Positions 11,673-55,382 of a stretch of DNA of 64,000 bases are shown here, piece after piece. Source of the DNA: Eledone cirrhosa. Lineage: Eukaryota. A program made the translations under genes and the position numbers. The number at the start of each line of letters is the position of its first letter. Position 1 is the stretch's first letter. The notes below the pieces were generated by a model that searched no databases, was not told where the DNA came from, and saw only the letters and a list, made by a program, of their open reading frames with translations. The stretch covers positions 11,408,001-11,472,000 of the forward strand of contig OZ024752.1 of assembly GCA_964016885.1 (NCBI GenBank), read 5' to 3'.

Positions 11673-12204
11673 TAAGTACAGCGAATTTTTTAAAATTTAT
11701 TTTAAAACTTTTTCTCTATTTGCTAGACCTTGATTTTATATGTTCTGGCTTGTTAATTTATTAACCCGCCATAGAACCACATTGGAATACGGTTGGATAA
11801 TACTTGTTTCCCTATATATATTTTTTACACGTAGGAATTCATACTTTATTATTATTGATCTCCTCCTAAGGTAGAGATAAAACTTGGCCGTTTGGACTGC
11901 TGCTATTTCTAGTGGCAGGACATTGACCTGTCCACCCTGCCTTTTGTCTTTGCACACGGCACCAGACAGAGTTATTTCTTTCATCATTCGTTCTCATTTG
12001 GGAATGGTTTTGTATGGGGTCAGTTTGTGATTTGAACTCGGGAATTTTATATTCTCCGAGGGAGAAGAGCCTTCTGAAGATAGCTCCCTTCTCAATGGAA
12101 GTCCGTTTATTCTGCAGCTTGAAACCGCGGTAAAGGCACTTATAGTAAGTACAGCGAATTTTTAAAAATTTATTTTAAAACTTTTTCTCTATTTGCTAGA
12201 CCTT

Positions 12205-12212
<8 letters not shown>
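11673..12212 (+). mobile_element. Non-autonomous HHR retroelement, 473-nt unit with ~67-nt terminal direct repeat
   Basis: 11673-11739 is repeated at 12146-12212; HHR at 12069-12137; (TA)n on both sides. Confidence 0.8.
12069..12137 (+). ncRNA. Type I hammerhead ribozyme
   Basis: GCCTT-CTGAAGA-T-AGCT...AGCT-T-GAAA-CCGCGG-TA-AAGGC: 5-bp stem I, palindromic stem III ACCGCGGT, GUA triplet. Confidence 0.8.
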
Positions 12213-12253
<41 letters not shown>

Positions 12254-29805: not shown

Positions 29806-30456
29806 TCGGAGTGTGTATATGTCAGAGTGTATATATAAACAAAGTGTATATGTCAGAGTGTATGTGTCAGAGTGTATATATAAACAAAGTGTATATGTCA
29901 GAGTGTATGTGTCAGAGTGTATATATAAACAGAGTGTATGTGTCAGAGTGTATGTGTCAGAGTGTATATATAAACAAAGTGTATGTGTCAGAGTGTATGT
30001 GTCAGAGTGTATATATAAACAAAGTGTATATGTCAGAGTGTATGTGTCAGAGTGTATATATAAACAAAGTGTATATGTCAGAGTGTATGTGTCAGAGTGT
30101 ATATATAAACAAAGTGTATATGTCAGAGTGTATGTGTCAGAGTGTATATATAAACAAAGTGTATATGTCAGAGTGTATGTGTCAGAGTGTATATATAAAC
30201 AAAGTGTATATGTCAGAGTGTATGTGTCAGAGTGTATATATAAACAAAGTGTATATGTCAGAGTGTATGTGTCAGAGTGTATATATAAACAAAGTGTATA
30301 TGTCAGAGTGTATGTGTCAGAGTATATATATAAACAAAGTGTATATGTCAGAGTGTATGTGTCAGAGTATATATATAAACAAAGTGTATATGTCAAAGTG
30401 TATATGTCAGAGTGTATGTGTCAGAGTGTATATATAAACAGAGTGTATATATAAAC
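29806..30456. repeat. 45-bp minisatellite, ~14 copies
   Basis: Unit GTCAGAGTGTATATATAAACAAAGTGTATATGTCAGAGTGTATGT. Confidence 0.95.
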
Positions 30457-30671
30457 AAAGAAAGGAAAAAAAGAAAAACAGATCCTTAAATATATTTTCC
30501 GTGCTATTTCACCTTCTCCCTCTCTCTCTCTCTCTCCCCCTTCTCTCCCCCTCCCCCTCTCTCCCCTCTCTCTCCCTCTCTCTCCCCTCTCTCTCTCTCT
30601 CTCTCCCTATCTCCCCCTATCTCCCCTCTCTCTCTCTCCCCTCTCTCTCTCCCCTCTCCCGCCCTCTCTCT

Positions 30672-31047
30672 TTTTTGGAATGTTTTACATATTTTTACTG
30701 ATCCATTAATGGATTGTACATGTAATTTCCTAACTAGTTGTGTTCTTTCTGTTCCTGTAAAGCCTAGCTTCTCAATATTTGTATTGAGGCAGTTACTAAC
30801 ATATCCCAGTGCCCCAATAATCACAGGCATAAATCTGAAGGTGTAATCAGGGTGGAGTATCTGCAGATTTCTCATCAGTTCTGCATAAATATTCTCCTTT
30901 TCACTTATCTTTGATATTATATTGGCATCTGCTGGGCAGCTAATTTCCACTACTGTGCATGTTTTCTTCTCCCTGTCCCATATCATATCTAGTCTGTTAT
31001 GCCTGCATTTTATTGGGGTTTTTACTGGAACATTCCACCAGTACTCT
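30672..31047 (-). mobile_element. R4/Dong-clade non-LTR retrotransposon 3' end (RLE endonuclease)
   Basis: EYWWNVPVKT..HNRLD..WDREKKTCTVVEISCPAD....EKENIYAEL..PVIIGALG; bounded by microsatellites. Second fragment at ~58340-58545(-). Confidence 0.85.
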
Positions 31048-31414
31048 GTATGTATGTATGTATGTATGTATGTATGTATGTATGTATGTATGTATGTATA
31101 AATAGTATGTATTTCAGTGCTTAACTTACTACTATTATATATGACAGATTAGTGGATTGGCAGTATCGGTAGAGGGTCGGACGCCATGCTTTGCAGCAAA
31201 GAGTTACGGTCCTTTATGGTCTGAGTTCAAATCCCGCCGAGGTTAACTTTGCCTTTCATCCTTACGGGGTCGATAAAATAAAGTACCAGTAATACACTGG
31301 CTATTTGCTGGCCTTGTGCCAAAAGTAGAAACAATTATATATATGACAGAAGGAACTGTATAAAACACAAGTTCTGTGTGGGTTACATTCCACGAAATAC
31401 ACACACACATACAT

Positions 31415-34230: not shown

Positions 34231-35170
34231 GAGCCACTACTTCTCCGAATTGAGAGATCACAGCTCTGATACTATGGACATGTGGTTAGAATGTCTCAGG
34301 AAAAAAATAGCTGGACAGATTTGTAACTCAGAGATCAGAGAGTAGCTCCAGATAGAGCCACTACTTCTCTGAATTGAGAGATCACAGCTCTGATACTATG
34401 GACATGTGGTTAGAATGTCTCAGGAAAAAAATAGCTGGACAAATTTGTAACTCAGAGATCAGAGAGTAGCTCCAGATAGAGCCACTACTTCTCTGAATTG
34501 AGAGATCACAGCTCTGATACTATGGACATGTGGTTAGAATGTCTCAGGAAAAAAATAGCTGGACAAATTTGTAACTCAGAGATCAGAGAGTAGCTCCAGA
34601 TAGAGCCACTGCTTCTCTGAATTGAGAGATCACAGCTCTGATACTATGGACATGTGGTTAGAATGTCTCAGGAAAAAAATAGCTGGACAAATTTGTAACT
34701 CAGAGATCAGAGAGTAGCTCCAGATAGAGCCACTACTTCTCTGAATTGAGAGATCACAGCTCTGATACTATGGACATGTGGTTAGAATGTCTCAGAAAAA
34801 AATAGCTGGACAAATTTGTAACTCAGAGATCAGAGAGTAGCTCCAGATAGAGCCACTACTTCTCTGAATTGAGAGATCACAGCTCTGATACTATGGACAT
34901 GTGGTTAGAATGTCTCAGGAAAAAAATAGCTGGACAAATTTGTAACTCAGAGATCAGAGAGTAGCTCCAGATAGAGCCACTACTTCTCTGAATTGAGAGA
35001 TCACAGCTCTGATACTATGGACATGTGGTTAGAATGTCTCAGGAAAAAAATAGCTGGACAAATTTGTAACTCAGAGATCAGAGAGTAGCTCCAGATAGAG
35101 CCACTACTTCTCTGAATTGAGTGATCACAGCTCTGATACTATGGACATGTGGTTAGAATGTCTCAGGAAA
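34231..35170 (+). repeat. 124-bp tandem array (~7.5 units) derived from RTE LINE coding sequence
   Basis: Units start at 34231, 34355, 34479, 34603, 34727, 34850, 34974 and 35098. Confidence 0.95.
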
Positions 35171-35395
35171 GAATCGCTGAACAGATTTTACGGGCAAAAT
35201 CAGCAGGTAGGATACCCAGTGGTAGACCCAGAGCAAGATGGCTGGATACCATCCATGAGCTTGGCTGGGCATGCTTGGGTATCCAGCCGGATCAGTTGGA
35301 GACGGTCGCTTCTAACAAGGCCCGCTGGGGGGAGTGTTTGATGACCCTGTCACCACGACCCTCTCAGGAATAAGTGGGTAAAGAAAAGAAGATAA
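35098..35395 (+). mobile_element. RTE/Expander-like LINE 3' end
   Basis: YYGHVVRMSQERIAEQIL..GRIPSGRPRARWLDTI..LGI..LSPRP*. Confidence 0.85.
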
Positions 35396-38908: not shown

Positions 38909-39023
<115 letters not shown>

Positions 39024-39202
39024 TATGTATATATATACCATTTGAGTTAGTTTGCTTACCAAATACTCAAGTCCGTGGTTCTTTAATAAATATATATACA
39101 TTTATATACATATACATATATATATATATATATATATACATATATATACATATATATATATACATATATATATATGAAAAAATGGGGAGAAGAATACTGC
39201 AG

Positions 39203-39242
39203 GTCCGCTAAACTGATACGTACATATATGTATGTGTACCTG

Positions 39243-39292
<50 letters not shown>

Positions 39293-39718
39293 TGCTACTG
39301 TACGTCTGTATACATATATGTATGTACGTATACATACATACTTACATTTAAGTAAGTGCCGTACTAAGAGTGAGAAATGAAATTTCGTTTTCATTTTATT
39401 ACAACTTATCGTTTTCGGTACGCCTGGCGGAACTCACTCGATATGCAAATTAGACTGCTCAGCCGTTAATTTTCATAAGGAAAGTATATACTTTCGAACG
39501 ATCAACCATCTGGCAGAAGGGTATACGGTGCTGATGATAGCTAACAAGCTTGAAACTAGTACATCGTTCCTGTGTCAGTGTTGAACAAAAAGGTGACGTG
39601 GTTGCCTTAACACCGTACGGCATAAATTCAGGCTGTTCAGTTTGTTTACAAACGAACAAAGCGGGCGTTATAATAAGCGTCCGCTAAACTGATACGTACA
39701 TATATGTATGTGTACCTG

Positions 39719-39774
<56 letters not shown>

Positions 39775-39888
39775 TGCTACTGTACGTCTGTATACATATA
39801 TGTATGTACGTATACATACATACTTACATTTAAGTAAGTGCCGTACTAAGAGTGAAAAATGAAATTTCGTTTTCATTTTATTACAACT

Positions 39889-39889
<1 letters not shown>
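39203..39889 (+). mobile_element. Non-autonomous HHR retroelement, ~476-482-nt unit with ~205-nt terminal direct repeat
   Basis: 39203-39408 is repeated at 39679-39889 (the internal TA run differs in length); HHR between the repeats. Confidence 0.75.
39525..39567 (+). ncRNA. Minimal type I hammerhead ribozyme
   Basis: ACGGTG-CTGATGA-T-AGCT-AACA-AGCT-T-GAAA-CTAG-TA-CATCGT: 6-bp stem I, palindromic stem III ACTAGT. Confidence 0.82.
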
Positions 39890-39923
<34 letters not shown>

Positions 39924-40453
39924 TATATACATATGTGTGTATGAGAGTACATAGTGTAATATATTGTATATATACAAGGTTCAAGTGAAGAACCATATAG
40001 ACAATAGGAACTTGAGGAAGTACGGACGTTAATCCGATATAACAATACGCCAGTGTATTTGTACATTGGAAAAACTTTACTAGATAACATCTGAGTGCAC
40101 TTGTGTATATATGCACATTTCTTGGAAGCTGATAAAAATATTTGGAAAGAGGAACATAAGTATGAGGTTGAATTATTGCATCATGCAACCTATATCATAT
40201 TAGGAGGTTAGAAATATTTGATTTAAATATTAATCTGTACAATATTGTAGAATAATGTAACTGTTGGTGAAGCAATCTTTTGTAAATTGGTTTTAAATGT
40301 AGTTATTGTTCTAAGCCGAAATTCCATCGAATTATGAAATATTGTGAAATGTAATATTGCATATTATACGTATTATAATCTCAAATGTAATTTCAGGTAC
40401 GTAGTATAACCTGTACGATAGCATAAATTGTAAATATGACTGTCAAAGAGAGC

Positions 40454-41384
40454 CTGTGAGGTAGTGTTATACTACATAGAACTGTAATGTATCCTGTACT
40501 ATATAGAAGGTTAGATATGTTAATGTTACACTGTGAGGTAATAGTATACCTCATAGAACTCTAATGTATCCTGTACTATATAGAAGGTTAGATATGTTAA
40601 GGTTACACTGTGAGGTAATAGTATACCTCATAGAACTCTAATGTATCCTGTACTATATAGAAGGTTAGATATGTTAAGGTTACACTGTGAGGTAATAGTA
40701 TACCTCATAGAACTCTAATGTATCCTGTACTATATAGAAGGTTAGATATGTTAAGGTTACACTGTGAGGTAATAGTATACCTCATAGAACTCTAATGTAT
40801 CCTGTACTATATAAAAGGTTAGATATGTTAATGTTACACTGTGAGGTAATAGTATACCTCATAGAACTCTAATGTATCCTGTACTATATAGAAGGTTAGA
40901 TATGTTAAGGTTACACTGTGAGGTAATAGTATACCTCATAGAACTCTAATGTATCCTGTACTATATAGAAGGTTAGATATGTTAAGGTTACACTGTGAGG
41001 TAATAGTATACCTCATAGAACTCTAATGTATCCTGTACTATATAGAAGGTTAGATATGTTAAGGTTACACTGTGAGGTAATAGTATACCTCATAGAACTC
41101 TAATGTATCCTGTACTATATAAAAGGTTAGATATGTTAATGTTACACTGTGAGGTAATAGTATACCTCATAGAACTCTAATGTATCCTGTACTATATAAA
41201 AGGTTAGATATGTTAATGTTACACTGTGAGGTAATAGTATACCTCATAAAACTCTAATGTATCCTGTACTATATAAAAGGTTAGATATGTTAATGTTACA
41301 CTGTGAGGTAATAGTATACCTCATAGAACTCTAATGTATCCTGTACTATATAAAAGGTTAGATATGTTAATGTTGTTACACTGA
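40454..41384. repeat. 77-bp minisatellite, 12 copies, each with a 10-bp hairpin
   Basis: Units start every 77 nt from 40454; CTGTGAGGTA-ATAGTA-TACCTCATAG. Confidence 0.95.
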
Positions 41385-46339: not shown

Positions 46340-46400
46340 TATTTTATCTGATGAGAGCGTACCAAAGATTTGGTACCCTTGAAATATATATAATAGAATA
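46340..46400 (+). ncRNA. Type I hammerhead ribozyme (GTACCAA-stem family)
   Basis: TATTTTAT-CTGATGA-GAG-C-GTACCAA AGAT TTGGTAC-C-CTT-GAAA-TATATA-TA-ATAGAATA (8-bp stem I). Other copies at ~23485, 43460/43730, 55500 and 56192-56252. Confidence 0.75.
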
Positions 46401-48882: not shown

Positions 48883-49449
48883 ACAACAAAATAATGAAGT
48901 TATATGTTAAATTCCTGGTTGAAGCACATATTTATTGAAAGAAAAGTGTTCAACAATTGTTTACAATGCTAATGAAGTAAACTTAACCAGAGTGAAATAC
49001 TGAAGTACAAGAAGGTGTAAAATAACATCAGTTCATTATATCTGGTGTGAGAAAATGCCTGTTAACAGTTTGTATATGTTTTACTAGTGTTTATGTATAC
49101 GCTATGTCTGTTAGTTTATGTTAAAAAGTGATTATGGTAAATGGAAACGTTTGTGTGTGTATGAATGTTCTCCTGTATAGTTTATGTATGTGTGGATGTT
49201 GATATACGGGCTGTTTATTGTGTATATTTTTCTGCTTTGTGTAACTATACACATAGTGTATGAGTGTAAATATTTGTGTGTTTACTTGGGAAATCAGTGT
49301 GTCTCTGTGTGGGCGAGGTGGATATAATCTAGCGCTTATATGAGAAGTTTATTGTGTAGCTGTTTGCGGAGTAGGCCTATGTATATGTATGAGTATGTGT
49401 GTGTGTTGGTGTGTCTTTCTGTGTTTGCGTCTGTCTGTATTTGTGTGTT

Positions 49450-53549: not shown

Positions 53550-54224
53550 GATGCATGTAACCTTGATTCCCTGGGCATAGATACATTGAAGCTCCGACGT
53601 CTGGCAACTGACTTCGTAAACACCCACAAATCATTAACCATCTTGCCAACAACAACCCTGAGCACCTTTTTGATTTCGATGTGTTTAACACACATGGACA
53701 TGTCTAGAAAGTCAGAAAACAGCACAGCTCCCATGACTTTCGGAAACATCTTTTCACGTACAAAGTTGCTGAAGCATGGAACAAAGTACCTGCATCAGTT
53801 GTTAGCTGTCGAGACACTGCATCCTTTAAAACTTCCATGGAACAAACTACCTGCATCAGTTGTTAGCTGTCGAGACACTGCATCCTTTAAAACTTCCATG
53901 GAACAAACTACCTGCATCAGTTGTTAGCTGCCGGGAAACTGCATCCTTTAAAACTTCCATGGAACAAACTACCTGCATCAGTTGTTAGCTGCCGGGAAAC
54001 TGCATCCTTTAAAACATCCATGCTTCCTGAGATTCGCCAACACTACACTTGATGTGTGTGTGTCCCCCTCCTCCATACACACACACACACACATGTATTT
54101 CATGACACGTACACTGTTCATTTTCCTGACATTTGCACATTATTCTATGTACTACACATGTACATTTGATGAGTTGTAGTGCACCTGAGCACTGTACACA
54201 ATAATTTTATTATTATTATATTAT
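53550..54224 (+). mobile_element. CR1-clade LINE 3' end with internal 61-bp x4 tandem repeat
   Basis: LGIDTLKLRRLATD..HK..HGH..FRKHLF..VAEAWNK.PASVV..ASFK; 3' UTR ends in (TTA)n; repeat units at 53775, 53836, 53897 and 53958. Confidence 0.85.
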
Positions 54225-54227
54225 CCA

Positions 54228-54825
54228 GGGTGGTGGATTGGCAGTATCGGTAGAGGGTCGGTCGCCATGAATTGCAGCATACGGCCCTTTATGATGAGTT
54301 CAAATCCCGCCGAGGTTAACTTTGCCTTTCATCCTTACGGGGTCGATAAAATAAAGTACCAGTCCTGCACTGGGGTTGATTTAATCGACTTTCTCTCCCC
54401 CAAATTGCTGGCCTTGTGCCTATATAAGAAACCGGTGGATTGGCAGTATCAGTGGAGGGTCAGACGCCATGCTTTGACGCATAGAGTTACGGCCCTTGTC
54501 ATTCTGAGTTCAAATCCCGCCGAGGTTAACTTTGCCTTTCATCCTTATGGGGTCGATAAAATAAAGTACCAGTAATACACTGAGTAATTTCTGGCCTTGT
54601 GCCAAAAGTAGAAACAATTATTATTATAATATCGAGGGCGGTGGATTGGCAGTACCGGTAGAGGGTCGGACGCCATGCTTTGACGCATAGAGTTACGGCC
54701 TTTTCCATTCTGAATTCAAATCCCGCCGAGATTAACTTTGCTTTTCATCCTTACGGGGTCGATAAAATAAAGTACCAGTAATGCACTGGTATAATTGCTG
54801 GCCTTGTGCCCAAAACAGAAAAATT
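54228..54825 (+). mobile_element. Three head-to-tail SINE A copies
   Basis: ~54228-54433, 54434-54620 and 54636-54825. Confidence 0.9.
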
Positions 54826-55382
54826 ATATAATTATAACTTTACTTTTAGTTGTCTTATATTTTAGACTACTTTGTGTAAAAAGACACCAGTGATTTTCCT
54901 GAACTTCTGATACTCTGCTTGATCCAATCAACCAGCAGTATAAAGCACGCTGTTGTATATCACAATTCTAATGTATAAAAAAAAACGCATCAGTTTCTTT
55001 AATGAAATATTTATTACTCACGAGATTAAATAATATATCACTAACACAACTATATTGTAGTGGTTTGAAGCAGTAACAATATTTGTTCAAGTTTAAAGCG
55101 ACCGTTAGTTTATGCCTGCAGATGGCAATAGATTTCCATATTAAGGTGTGTGCATAATAAATATCTGATATATATCTTTCGTTCAACTTTAATATTTCAA
55201 TTTACAACCAGCATGATAGAAAATTAACATTGCCAGACTTATTGTTGATTTTAAGCGTGTTGCTGGATATTACTGTCGTTCATGCAGATAATTTTATTAT
55301 GTTAAACTTGCGCAATATAGCCCCATCAAATATGGCCTTGGATGGAGTTAGACTTAGTGGTAATTTTGGAATAGAGTTATTA

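What the first reader, a model, noticed from the sequence alone, without database searches (positions are those of the whole stretch)
39203..39889. Third retrozyme-like unit (~480 nt) with a clean minimal hammerhead
Seen: a ~205-nt direct repeat (39203-39408 / 39679-39889) brackets a unique 270 nt containing ACGGTG-CTGATGA-TAGCT-AACA-AGCTT-GAAA-CTAG-TA-CATCGT. The unit carries its own internal (TA)n. Its stem II base (U.U then AGCT/AGCT) is identical to that of the 12069 HHR, and the unit length is similar (473 versus ~480), although the bodies look unrelated. Inference: a class of ~0.5-kb non-coding HHR retroelements inserted as 1.1-1.6-mers.
Basis: partly seen in the sequence, partly recalled or inferred. 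Interest (0 to 1): 0.76.

Follow-up and report, generated by a model that had tools for sequence, protein, structure and literature searches.

The report
Self-cutting jumping RNA with own promoter
This is one of more than 23,000 genomic copies of a 476-base non-coding repeat that carries a hammerhead motif predicted to cut its own RNA and, just in front of it, a likely copy of the host's own snRNA-gene promoter, which would let tandem copies transcribe, cut out and re-insert themselves with enzymes likely borrowed from Penelope-like transposons.

Summary
39203-39889 is a 1.44-mer of a 476-nt unit with one type I hammerhead (39525-39567), ending in (TA)n. It is not a one-off duplication: the genome holds 23,477 exact copies of the ribozyme core, as solo copies, head-to-tail arrays and inverted 5' pieces. 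20 of 22 mapped 3' ends run into (TA)n, and one copy has a 9-bp target-site duplication. This fits a non-LTR retrozyme, a known class, likely moved by a Penelope-like RT; the partner was not identified. A model built only from this genome's U1/U2 promoters picks 39515 as the best start of 952 positions, and the octamer block matches the host's U6/MRP genes. A diverged sister family with a U3-A8 hammerhead keeps the layout. Compensatory changes show that the promoter stretch is part of the folded RNA. Precedent: newt satellite 2. Expression, cleavage and polymerase are untested; no RNA run was listed. This copy has one ribozyme and is likely a dead-end daughter.

The parts
38911..39175 (.). (TA)n-rich microsatellite, left flank and likely target
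   Evidence: TRF; sequence
39176..39202 (-). 27-nt non-family piece at the 5' junction; likely the inverted tip of another (TA)n-anchored repeat
   Evidence: Single in the window; one similar stretch next to (TA)n in L075; identity of that repeat not followed up
39203..39409 (+). 5'-truncated upstream partial unit (repeat copy 1): hairpin arm, internal (TA)n 39243-39289, 3' segment
39410..39678 (+). Remainder of the 476-nt unit (promoter region, hammerhead rod, downstream hairpins)
   Evidence: Family of 98-100% identical copies; architecture
39442..39453 (+). Octamer block TATGCAAATTAG, matching the motif at -77 to -79 of host U6 and RNase MRP genes (one mismatch in U6atac)
   Evidence: chance about 6e-4 per monomer
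39459..39464 (+). PSE-like TCAGCC at -56, in register with TCA(G/A)T at -56 to -58 of host U1/U2 genes; fifth base differs
   Evidence: kept in the sister family (0.87 identity)
39485..39490 (+). TATA box at -30
39515..39515 (+). Predicted transcription start (C|A), 16 nt upstream of the CUGA core
   Evidence: Best of 952 positions with a host-only U1/U2 model; same site in 63 of 77 distinct copies; not measured
39500..39586 (+). Extended stem I rod carrying the hammerhead (39500-06/39580-86, 39510-15/39573-78, 39518-21/39568-71, 39525-30/39562-67)
   Evidence: Fold; pair counts
39525..39567 (+). Canonical type I hammerhead; palindromic 39555-39560 predicted to pair between two ribozymes; predicted cleavage between 39561 and 39562
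39679..39889 (+). Repeat copy 2, ending at the family's fixed 3' end (predicted RT start site)
39889..39934 (.). (TA)n right flank, target microsatellite; masks any target-site duplication

Best explanation
This is a daughter insertion of a young, very abundant non-LTR retrozyme whose 476-nt unit carries a likely snRNA-type promoter (predicted to be read by RNA polymerase II) directly upstream of a hammerhead predicted to self-cleave, and which is likely copied into (TA)n sites by a Penelope-like reverse transcriptase. Steps: (1, inferred) transcription starts at about 39515, just early enough to include the 5' arm of stem I. (2, inferred) In a tandem array the polymerase reads on through the next unit's promoter, so the promoter becomes part of the RNA. 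(3, predicted) Two hammerheads pair through their palindromic stem III and cut out a monomer, which may be circularised as in other retrozymes. (4, inferred from genomic footprints) A PLE protein nicks (TA)n and starts reverse transcription inside the RNA at a fixed U-rich site. It runs more than once around the unit and gives 5'-truncated partial tandems, arrays and inverted 5' pieces. Shown directly: copy number, fixed 3' end, target preference, one target-site duplication, arrays and inversions, compensatory base changes, and the match of the three motifs to host promoters. This locus has a single ribozyme, so it would not release a whole monomer.
For: Family: 23,477 exact cores, control 0; 19,837 octamer-to-TATA matches, control 18. 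Insertion footprints: 20 of 22 true 3' ends in (TA)n; of 33 clusters, 9 tandem and 8 with ribozymes on both strands; 9-bp duplication in L112 against single empty sites in 9 distinct PLE copies. These features are listed for PLEs in 10.1101/2021.04.23.441226; internal RT initiation is shown in PMC11167929. Neptune-like PLEs are abundant (54,434 candidates, open frames up to 760 aa). RNA structure: 13 of 69 pairs change on both sides (5 of 500 shuffles reach this; slid controls 35-43% paired against 94%), including helix 39368-74/39433-39, which crosses the 3'-end junction into the stretch upstream of the promoter. Ribozyme: in contigs of a related source the only common variants in 39525-39567 are a G.U to A-U change, N7 and loop 2; a double hammerhead is strongly favoured over two single ones in core-helix energy. 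Promoter: 9 of 9 U1/U2 promoter types have TCA(G/A)T at -56 to -58 and a TATA-like box; the host-only model puts the start at 39515; octamer plus a score of 12 or more occurs at 1 of 127,780 window positions, this one; 26 of 30 sister-family copies score best at the homologous site. None of the ten other hammerhead motifs in the window scores above 11.0 upstream.
Against: The U1/U2-model score (14.0) is below the host genes' leave-one-out range (16-26), and 18 of about 128,000 window positions score 14 or more. Host U1/U2 genes lack the octamer at this place; it is a U6/MRP feature here and lies about 5 nt closer than in those genes. The sister family was found with the octamer+TATA pattern, so those two motifs are conserved in it partly by selection of the sample; the same bias affects part of alignment A1. 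The octamer also falls in a predicted hairpin, so RNA structure could contribute to its conservation. No T4 run occurs in the first 349 nt after the predicted start, which suits polymerase III. No pLTR homologous to the unit was seen among 40 PLE loci (output partly cut), so the partner is unnamed. The single-ribozyme active fold costs about 7.5 kcal/mol over the minimum-energy fold, the rod alone is not more stable than shuffles (z -1.5), and 8 of 9 Xenopus retrozymes tested in vitro did not cleave.
Confidence: 0.62

Rival explanations
1. Same element, but the promoter is a U6-type (type 3) polymerase III promoter. Most transcripts stop at the T tracts at the element's 3' end and leaky read-through in arrays supplies monomers.
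For: The octamer block and TATA at -30 are found in 5 of 5 host U6, MRP and U6atac promoter types and not at this place in U1/U2. With relaxed spacing the U6-type model scores 21.1 at 39515. T runs begin only 349 nt after the start. Schistosome hammerhead repeats use polymerase III (PMC6765202 passage).
Against: With host spacing the model scores -6.3. TCAG sits in U1/U2 register. Subfamilies with T6-T7 tracts at the unit junction still form arrays and carry the promoter, which needs efficient read-through.
Confidence: 0.2
2. A retrozyme with no promoter of its own: the motifs are chance matches or are kept for RNA folding, and RNA comes from read-through of neighbouring genes or transposons.
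For: AT-rich DNA makes TATA-like boxes common; the U1/U2 score alone is modest; the octamer lies in a predicted hairpin; the 12074 family spreads without these motifs.
Against: Three motifs and a C|A start fall in host register at the 5' edge of the ribozyme; the joint event is unique in the window; TCAGCC and the start context, which were not in the search pattern, are kept in a sister family that is about 63% identical overall in gapped alignment; the octamer strand stays fixed while its predicted pairing partner differs between subfamilies.
Confidence: 0.12
3. The repeat spreads by another route: a LINE RT, a Helitron-type rolling circle, or DNA-level satellite expansion from PLE ends.
For: No PLE with a homologous pLTR was seen. 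Li et al. (10.64898/2026.07.22.740005) propose local tandem expansion by unequal crossover. Internal microsatellites and tandem arrays occur in Helitron-derived elements (recalled).
Against: Dispersed copies share one 3' end with variable 5' ends, more-than-unit lengths and inverted 5' pieces. A 9-bp duplication argues against Helitrons (their lack of duplications is recalled). Compensatory changes point to an RNA stage.
Confidence: 0.06

Closest known systems
Metazoan non-LTR retrozymes (Cervera and de la Pena 2020, PMC7229834; Li et al. 2026, 10.64898/2026.07.22.740005)
   Same: Non-coding, low-GC (35.5%) tandem-prone unit with one type I hammerhead; self-paired predicted circle; coexists with PLEs. 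Helix III as in axolotl HHR_Amex1 (1 bp plus palindromic tetraloop) and U.U at the base of helix II as in HHR_Amex2.
   Different: Unit of 476 nt with an internal (TA)n hairpin, longer than the 170-400 nt in PMC7229834 though inside the 51-972 bp range of Li et al. The parts of those papers that I read describe no internal promoter. No homologous pLTR was found here, unlike 24 of 57 Xenopus families that matched known transposons, mostly PLE ends.
Newt satellite 2 (Coats, Zhang and Epstein 1994; seen only through citing passages in PMC2220036 and PMC6765202)
   Same: Hammerhead repeat with an internal snRNA-type promoter read by polymerase II; dimer-type ribozyme.
   Different: Here an invertebrate-type genome, dispersed insertions with PLE footprints, and a promoter that joins the host's U6-type octamer to a U1/U2-type core with TATA. 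No sequence comparison with the newt repeat was made.
Schistosoma Sm-alpha hammerhead repeats
   Same: Promoter placed before the hammerhead, so that tandem copies are needed for propagation (PMC6765202 passage).
   Different: Those use a polymerase III promoter; here the match is to upstream snRNA-gene elements, and Rfam found no tRNA-like part in 39400-39690.
Neptune and Naiad Penelope-like elements
   Same: 5' truncation, partial tandems, inverted 5' copies, microsatellite bias. The Neptune-like PLEs here also end next to (TA)n and carry pLTR hammerheads.
   Different: The unit encodes no protein, and its hammerhead and upstream region differ from the pLTRs sampled.

Membership tests
Non-LTR retrozyme | Type I hammerhead in each unit | tested here: met
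Non-LTR retrozyme | Short, low-GC, non-coding unit in head-to-tail repeats | tested here: met
   476 nt, 35.5% GC; arrays; only a low-complexity open frame overlaps it
Non-LTR retrozyme | Coexistence with autonomous PLEs | tested here: met
   PLE assignment rests on recalled RT and GIY-YIG motifs, since Pfam gave no significant hit
Non-LTR retrozyme | Self-cleavage of the transcript | not testable with these tools
   Only energy estimates
Non-LTR retrozyme | Expression as linear and circular monomer RNA | not testable with these tools
   No RNA holder listed
Active retrozyme locus (criterion of Li et al. 2026) | [quoted passage not shown] | tested here: not met
   One hammerhead at this locus; met by 9 of 33 other clusters
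PLE-mobilised element | Fixed 3' end, 5' truncation, partial tandems, inverted 5' copies | tested here: met
PLE-mobilised element | Microsatellite or AT-rich target, with target-site duplication where visible | tested here: met
   20 of 22 ends in (TA)n; one 9-bp duplication
PLE-mobilised element | Homology to the pLTR of an autonomous PLE | tested here: inconclusive
   None seen in 40 loci of one PLE group out of 54,434 candidates; output partly cut
PLE minimal hammerhead (min-HHR, PMC4209133) | Long helix II (7-8 bp), short helix I (4-5 bp), no helix III | tested here: not met
   Helix I 6 bp, helix II 4 bp, palindromic helix III: the canonical type
Host U1/U2-type promoter | TCA(G/A)T at -56 to -58, TATA-like box near -30, Y|A start | tested here: inconclusive
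   Register met and best site in the unit, but TCAGC instead of TCAGT and score 14.0 against 16-26
Host U6/MRP-type promoter | Octamer block at -77 to -79 with TATA at -30 | tested here: not met
   Both motifs present but the block is at -73; strict model -6.3
snRNA-type promoter | Measured start site, factor binding, polymerase identity | not testable with these tools
   No reads or assays
Sm-alpha-like SINE | Internal A and B boxes | not tested
   No box scan was run; Rfam showed no tRNA match in 39400-39690

The most novel reading that the evidence does not exclude
An old lineage of animal retrozymes (at least two families, about 63% identical, one with a U3-A8 hammerhead) has captured a chimeric host snRNA promoter, a U6-type octamer on a U1/U2-type core, and carries it inside its own circular RNA. 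The promoter is regenerated at each Penelope-driven insertion, making a self-sufficient transcription-cleavage-circularisation cassette in over 23,000 copies. With newt satellite 2 this would make snRNA-promoter capture a recurrent answer to how animal retrozymes are transcribed so strongly.
Probability: 0.45. Interest if true: 0.75.

Novelty: new variant of a known kind. Interest (0 to 1): 0.58.

Why it matters
The retrozyme papers read here report intense transcription but name no promoter in the parts I saw, and they propose PLE mobilisation from co-occurrence and pLTR similarity. This family offers a concrete, mutable three-motif promoter calibrated on the host's own snRNA genes, a base-precise predicted start, cleavage site and RT start, and genomic footprints of PLE-type insertion. 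Each step can be tested with one 1-kb dimer construct. At more than 23,000 copies (roughly 0.3-0.4% of the assembly if each core stands for one unit; my estimate) the family could also scatter octamer/SNAPc-type sites across the genome. The aligned U6, MRP, U1 and U2 promoters are a useful by-product for transgenic tools in this animal.

Tried and rejected
One-off duplication or mis-assembly: rejected, since the same unit, order and 3' end recur at many loci. A read-level check of this locus's left junction was not obtained, so the 27-nt leader junction rests on the assembly alone. Expression: no RNA holder listed; the four runs laid were contigs of unknown kind, two of which laid nothing; no inference drawn. 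Rfam over the whole window showed mostly (TA)n hairpin matches to miRNA models among the 150 of 224 rows shown. One search folded a stretch cut before the 3' arm of stem I and is uninformative. Folding z-scores of the non-repetitive part were not significant (-0.9 and -1.5); the low energy of the circle (-159 against -104 +/- 6 kcal/mol in 40 shuffles) is largely due to the (TA)n arm. Strict U6-type promoter: rejected on spacing, which changed my first reading from polymerase III to polymerase II. Kinship with the 12074 unit: rejected. PLE fragments next to copies (L030, L082, L083, L112) as native pLTR fusions: rejected for L112, where empty sites show an insertion into the PLE frame; the others abut through (TA)n. 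Pfam did not recognise the two PLE fragments. U6 loci L044, L045, L061-L072 and U6atac loci L212-L216 lacked promoter motifs at the expected place and were left out of the models as likely retrocopies; RNase P (L210) has a U2-like TCAG and no octamer and was used in neither model. Earlier findings: three look-ups, nothing shown. Coats 1994 and Cremisi 1992 were not held.

Full report
1. Observation. The two copies, 39203-39409 and 39679-39891, differ by one substitution and 6 nt of (TA)n. The period is 476 nt and the insert is a 1.44-mer between (TA)n tracts. A structural scan finds the hammerhead at 39531 among 11 type I motifs in the window. Rfam gives only a sub-threshold HH9 hit. By the definitions in PMC4209133 (passages) it is a canonical metazoan type I ribozyme, not a minimal one. 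Its 1-bp helix III with palindromic loop and the U.U at the base of helix II have counterparts in the two axolotl families of PMC7229834. The host is a 3.0-Gb animal genome; a cephalopod is my guess from recalled SINE motifs and was not tested.

2. Family. The 271-nt middle part has 1,356 candidates; the 40 scored are 98-100% identical. The 33-nt core occurs 23,477 times exactly (control 0). Copies occur as solo units, head-to-tail arrays and structures with inverted 5' pieces. In 46 loci from the start of contig C1 (the first listed hits, with L107-L123 chosen by me and tilted to the older subfamily) there are 33 clusters: 9 with two or more same-strand ribozymes and 8 with ribozymes on both strands. 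The script flagged 27 ends as non-continuing; I dropped 5 by eye (4 continue with mismatches, 1 is an inverted hairpin). Of the remaining 22, 20 run into (TA)n, one into (CA)n and one into (TC)n, all within a few bases of the same position. In L112 a near-dimer sits inside a PLE frame with a 9-bp duplication; ten loci (nine distinct places) show the empty site with one copy.

3. RNA structure. An alignment of 31 copies across subfamilies was counted against helices taken from the window copy. 94.2% of cells pair, against 35-43% for slid controls, and 13 of 69 pairs change on both sides (shuffle mean 9.1; 5 of 500 reach it). Relatedness inflates such counts, and one helix is poorly in register (78%). 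Helix 39368-74/39433-39 joins the 3' segment to sequence upstream of the promoter and has a two-sided change in 3 copies; helix 39500-06/39580-86 begins upstream of the predicted start and is 99% paired. So the RNA under constraint likely spans the whole unit. In contigs of organism A the only common variants in 39525-39567 are at tolerated positions. Energies: the single active fold costs about 7.5 kcal/mol over the best fold, while core helices of a double hammerhead score -20.0 against -3.2 for two singles. Cleavage is therefore predicted mainly in dimers. The non-repetitive part alone is not more stable than shuffles.

4. Promoter. Upstream of the ribozyme lie an octamer block (39442-53), TCAGCC (39459-64) and TATATA (39485-90). 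I fetched this genome's own genes. Three U6 promoter types and RNase MRP have TATGCWAATKAG at -77 to -79 and TATA at -30; U6atac has one mismatch. Five U1 and four U2 types lack it there and have TCA(G/A)T at -56 to -58, a TATA-like box at -28 to -34 and a Y|A start. A model from U1/U2 alone ranks 39515 first of 952 positions on both strands of the unit (14.0; host leave-one-out 16-26; U6-type genes -7 to -12). The U6-type model fails at host spacing (-6.3) and scores 21.1 if the octamer may lie 5 nt closer. Alone the U1/U2 score is modest: 18 of about 128,000 window positions reach it. With an octamer in range, only 39515 remains among 127,780 positions. 63 of 77 distinct copies give the same site.

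5. Sister family. The octamer-to-TATA pattern has 19,837 matches (control 18). By inspection 96 of the first 100 listed are this family and 4 are another. That second family (1,636 candidates) is about 63% identical in gapped alignment (25 of 30 copies used, those with an exact octamer). It has the same rod and a hammerhead with U3-A8 in place of C3-G8, a natural covariation reported in PMC4209133. Octamer and TATA are kept there partly because the search required them. TCAGCC (0.87) and the start context (0.78) were not required and exceed the spacers (0.38-0.59), and 26 of 30 copies score best at the homologous start. A promoter-motif search thus returned a second hammerhead family.

6. Partner. 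Neptune-like PLEs (RT, linker, Cys motif, C-terminal GIY-YIG; assignment from recalled motifs, Pfam silent) are very abundant, carry their own pLTR hammerheads and lie next to (TA)n. In the visible part no pLTR was homologous to the unit and none had the octamer; hits were separate copies of the family. The partner is inferred from footprints only.

7. The 12074 unit is another dispersed hammerhead family (2,544 candidates, 91-95%) with no similarity to this one beyond the core, a variable first pair in stem II and no octamer; its best U1/U2 score is 7.7.

8. Mechanism. Most likely: snRNA-type start just before the ribozyme, read-through of tandem units, dimer cleavage, probable circularisation, then PLE-type target-primed reverse transcription from a fixed internal site into (TA)n. 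I favour polymerase II because TCAG is in U1/U2 register and arrays persist across T6-T7 junctions. Polymerase III stays open because of the octamer and the absence of T4 runs in the first 349 nt. Nothing about expression could be tested.

9. Literature. Read: 10.64898/2026.07.22.740005, parts 1-3 of 5; PMC7229834, passages and parts 3-4 of 6; PMC11167929, parts 1-2 of 4; passages only of 10.1101/2021.04.23.441226, PMC2220036, PMC6765202, PMC4209133 and PMC6962438 (which counts 235 hammerhead 1 loci in giant squid). No supplements were read. The newt satellite 2 promoter is known to me only through citing passages; that it holds an octamer and a PSE is recalled. Six searches (top 20 listings each) showed no paper on this family or on an snRNA-type promoter in an invertebrate retrozyme. 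Subscription papers and Repbase were not searched.

10. Verdict. Real; a member of a known class by every genomic criterion tested; a new variant through its built-in, host-matched snRNA-type promoter, which has one precedent and is predicted, not measured. Interest 0.58.

Noticed in passing
L101, L104-L106, L164-L193 (e.g. G000:C1:30465139-30465379): Older sister retrozyme family without the internal (TA)n arm, with a U3-A8 hammerhead and the same promoter layout; some copies have a 3-nt insertion that lengthens helix III.
   Followed up: yes
window 11676-12215: Separate dispersed hammerhead family (473-nt unit, long helix II, ends in (TA)n) with no octamer; a B-box-like motif (recalled consensus) lies on the minus strand near 12030-12042.
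   Followed up: partly
window 5819(-), 18616(-), 46657(-), 46890(+): Four copies of another type I hammerhead family, two of them in inverted arrangement 230 nt apart.
   Followed up: no
window 46348(+), 13089(-), 47061(-), 47080(+), 52129(-): Further hammerhead motifs; the one at 46348 resembles the pLTR ribozymes of the Neptune-like PLEs in L154-L163.
   Followed up: partly
L112 3573-6696 (G000:C1:18484200-18491200): A retrozyme near-dimer inserted in a PLE frame with a 9-bp duplication; 853 nt of the chimera is repeated inverted at 96.8%, as if the PLE later moved with its passenger.
   Followed up: yes
L031, L032, L033-L043, L073, L211 versus L046-L060, L217-L236: Host snRNA promoter code: U6, MRP and U6atac have an octamer block at -78 and TATA at -30; U1 and U2 have TCAGT at -57 and also a TATA-like box.
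   Followed up: yes
L210 (G000:C24:12936134): The RNase P RNA gene lacks the octamer and has a U2-like TCAGTGG upstream, so it may be a polymerase II gene here.
   Followed up: no
L037, L038, L040-L043: Several genes of the tandem U6 array have a SINE-like repeat inserted between TATA region and start.
   Followed up: no
window 40454-41374; 34231-35188; 29813-30417; 54209-54837: Tandem arrays of 77, 124, 45 and 206 bp; the 206-bp one is built from a common SINE-like unit.
   Followed up: no
window 49295-49351: Highest U1/U2-type promoter score in the window (18.7), with no octamer; no snRNA checked downstream.
   Followed up: no
window 30507-31148 (-): Open frame with motifs like the C-terminal endonuclease of a non-LTR retrotransposon (recalled).
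   Followed up: no
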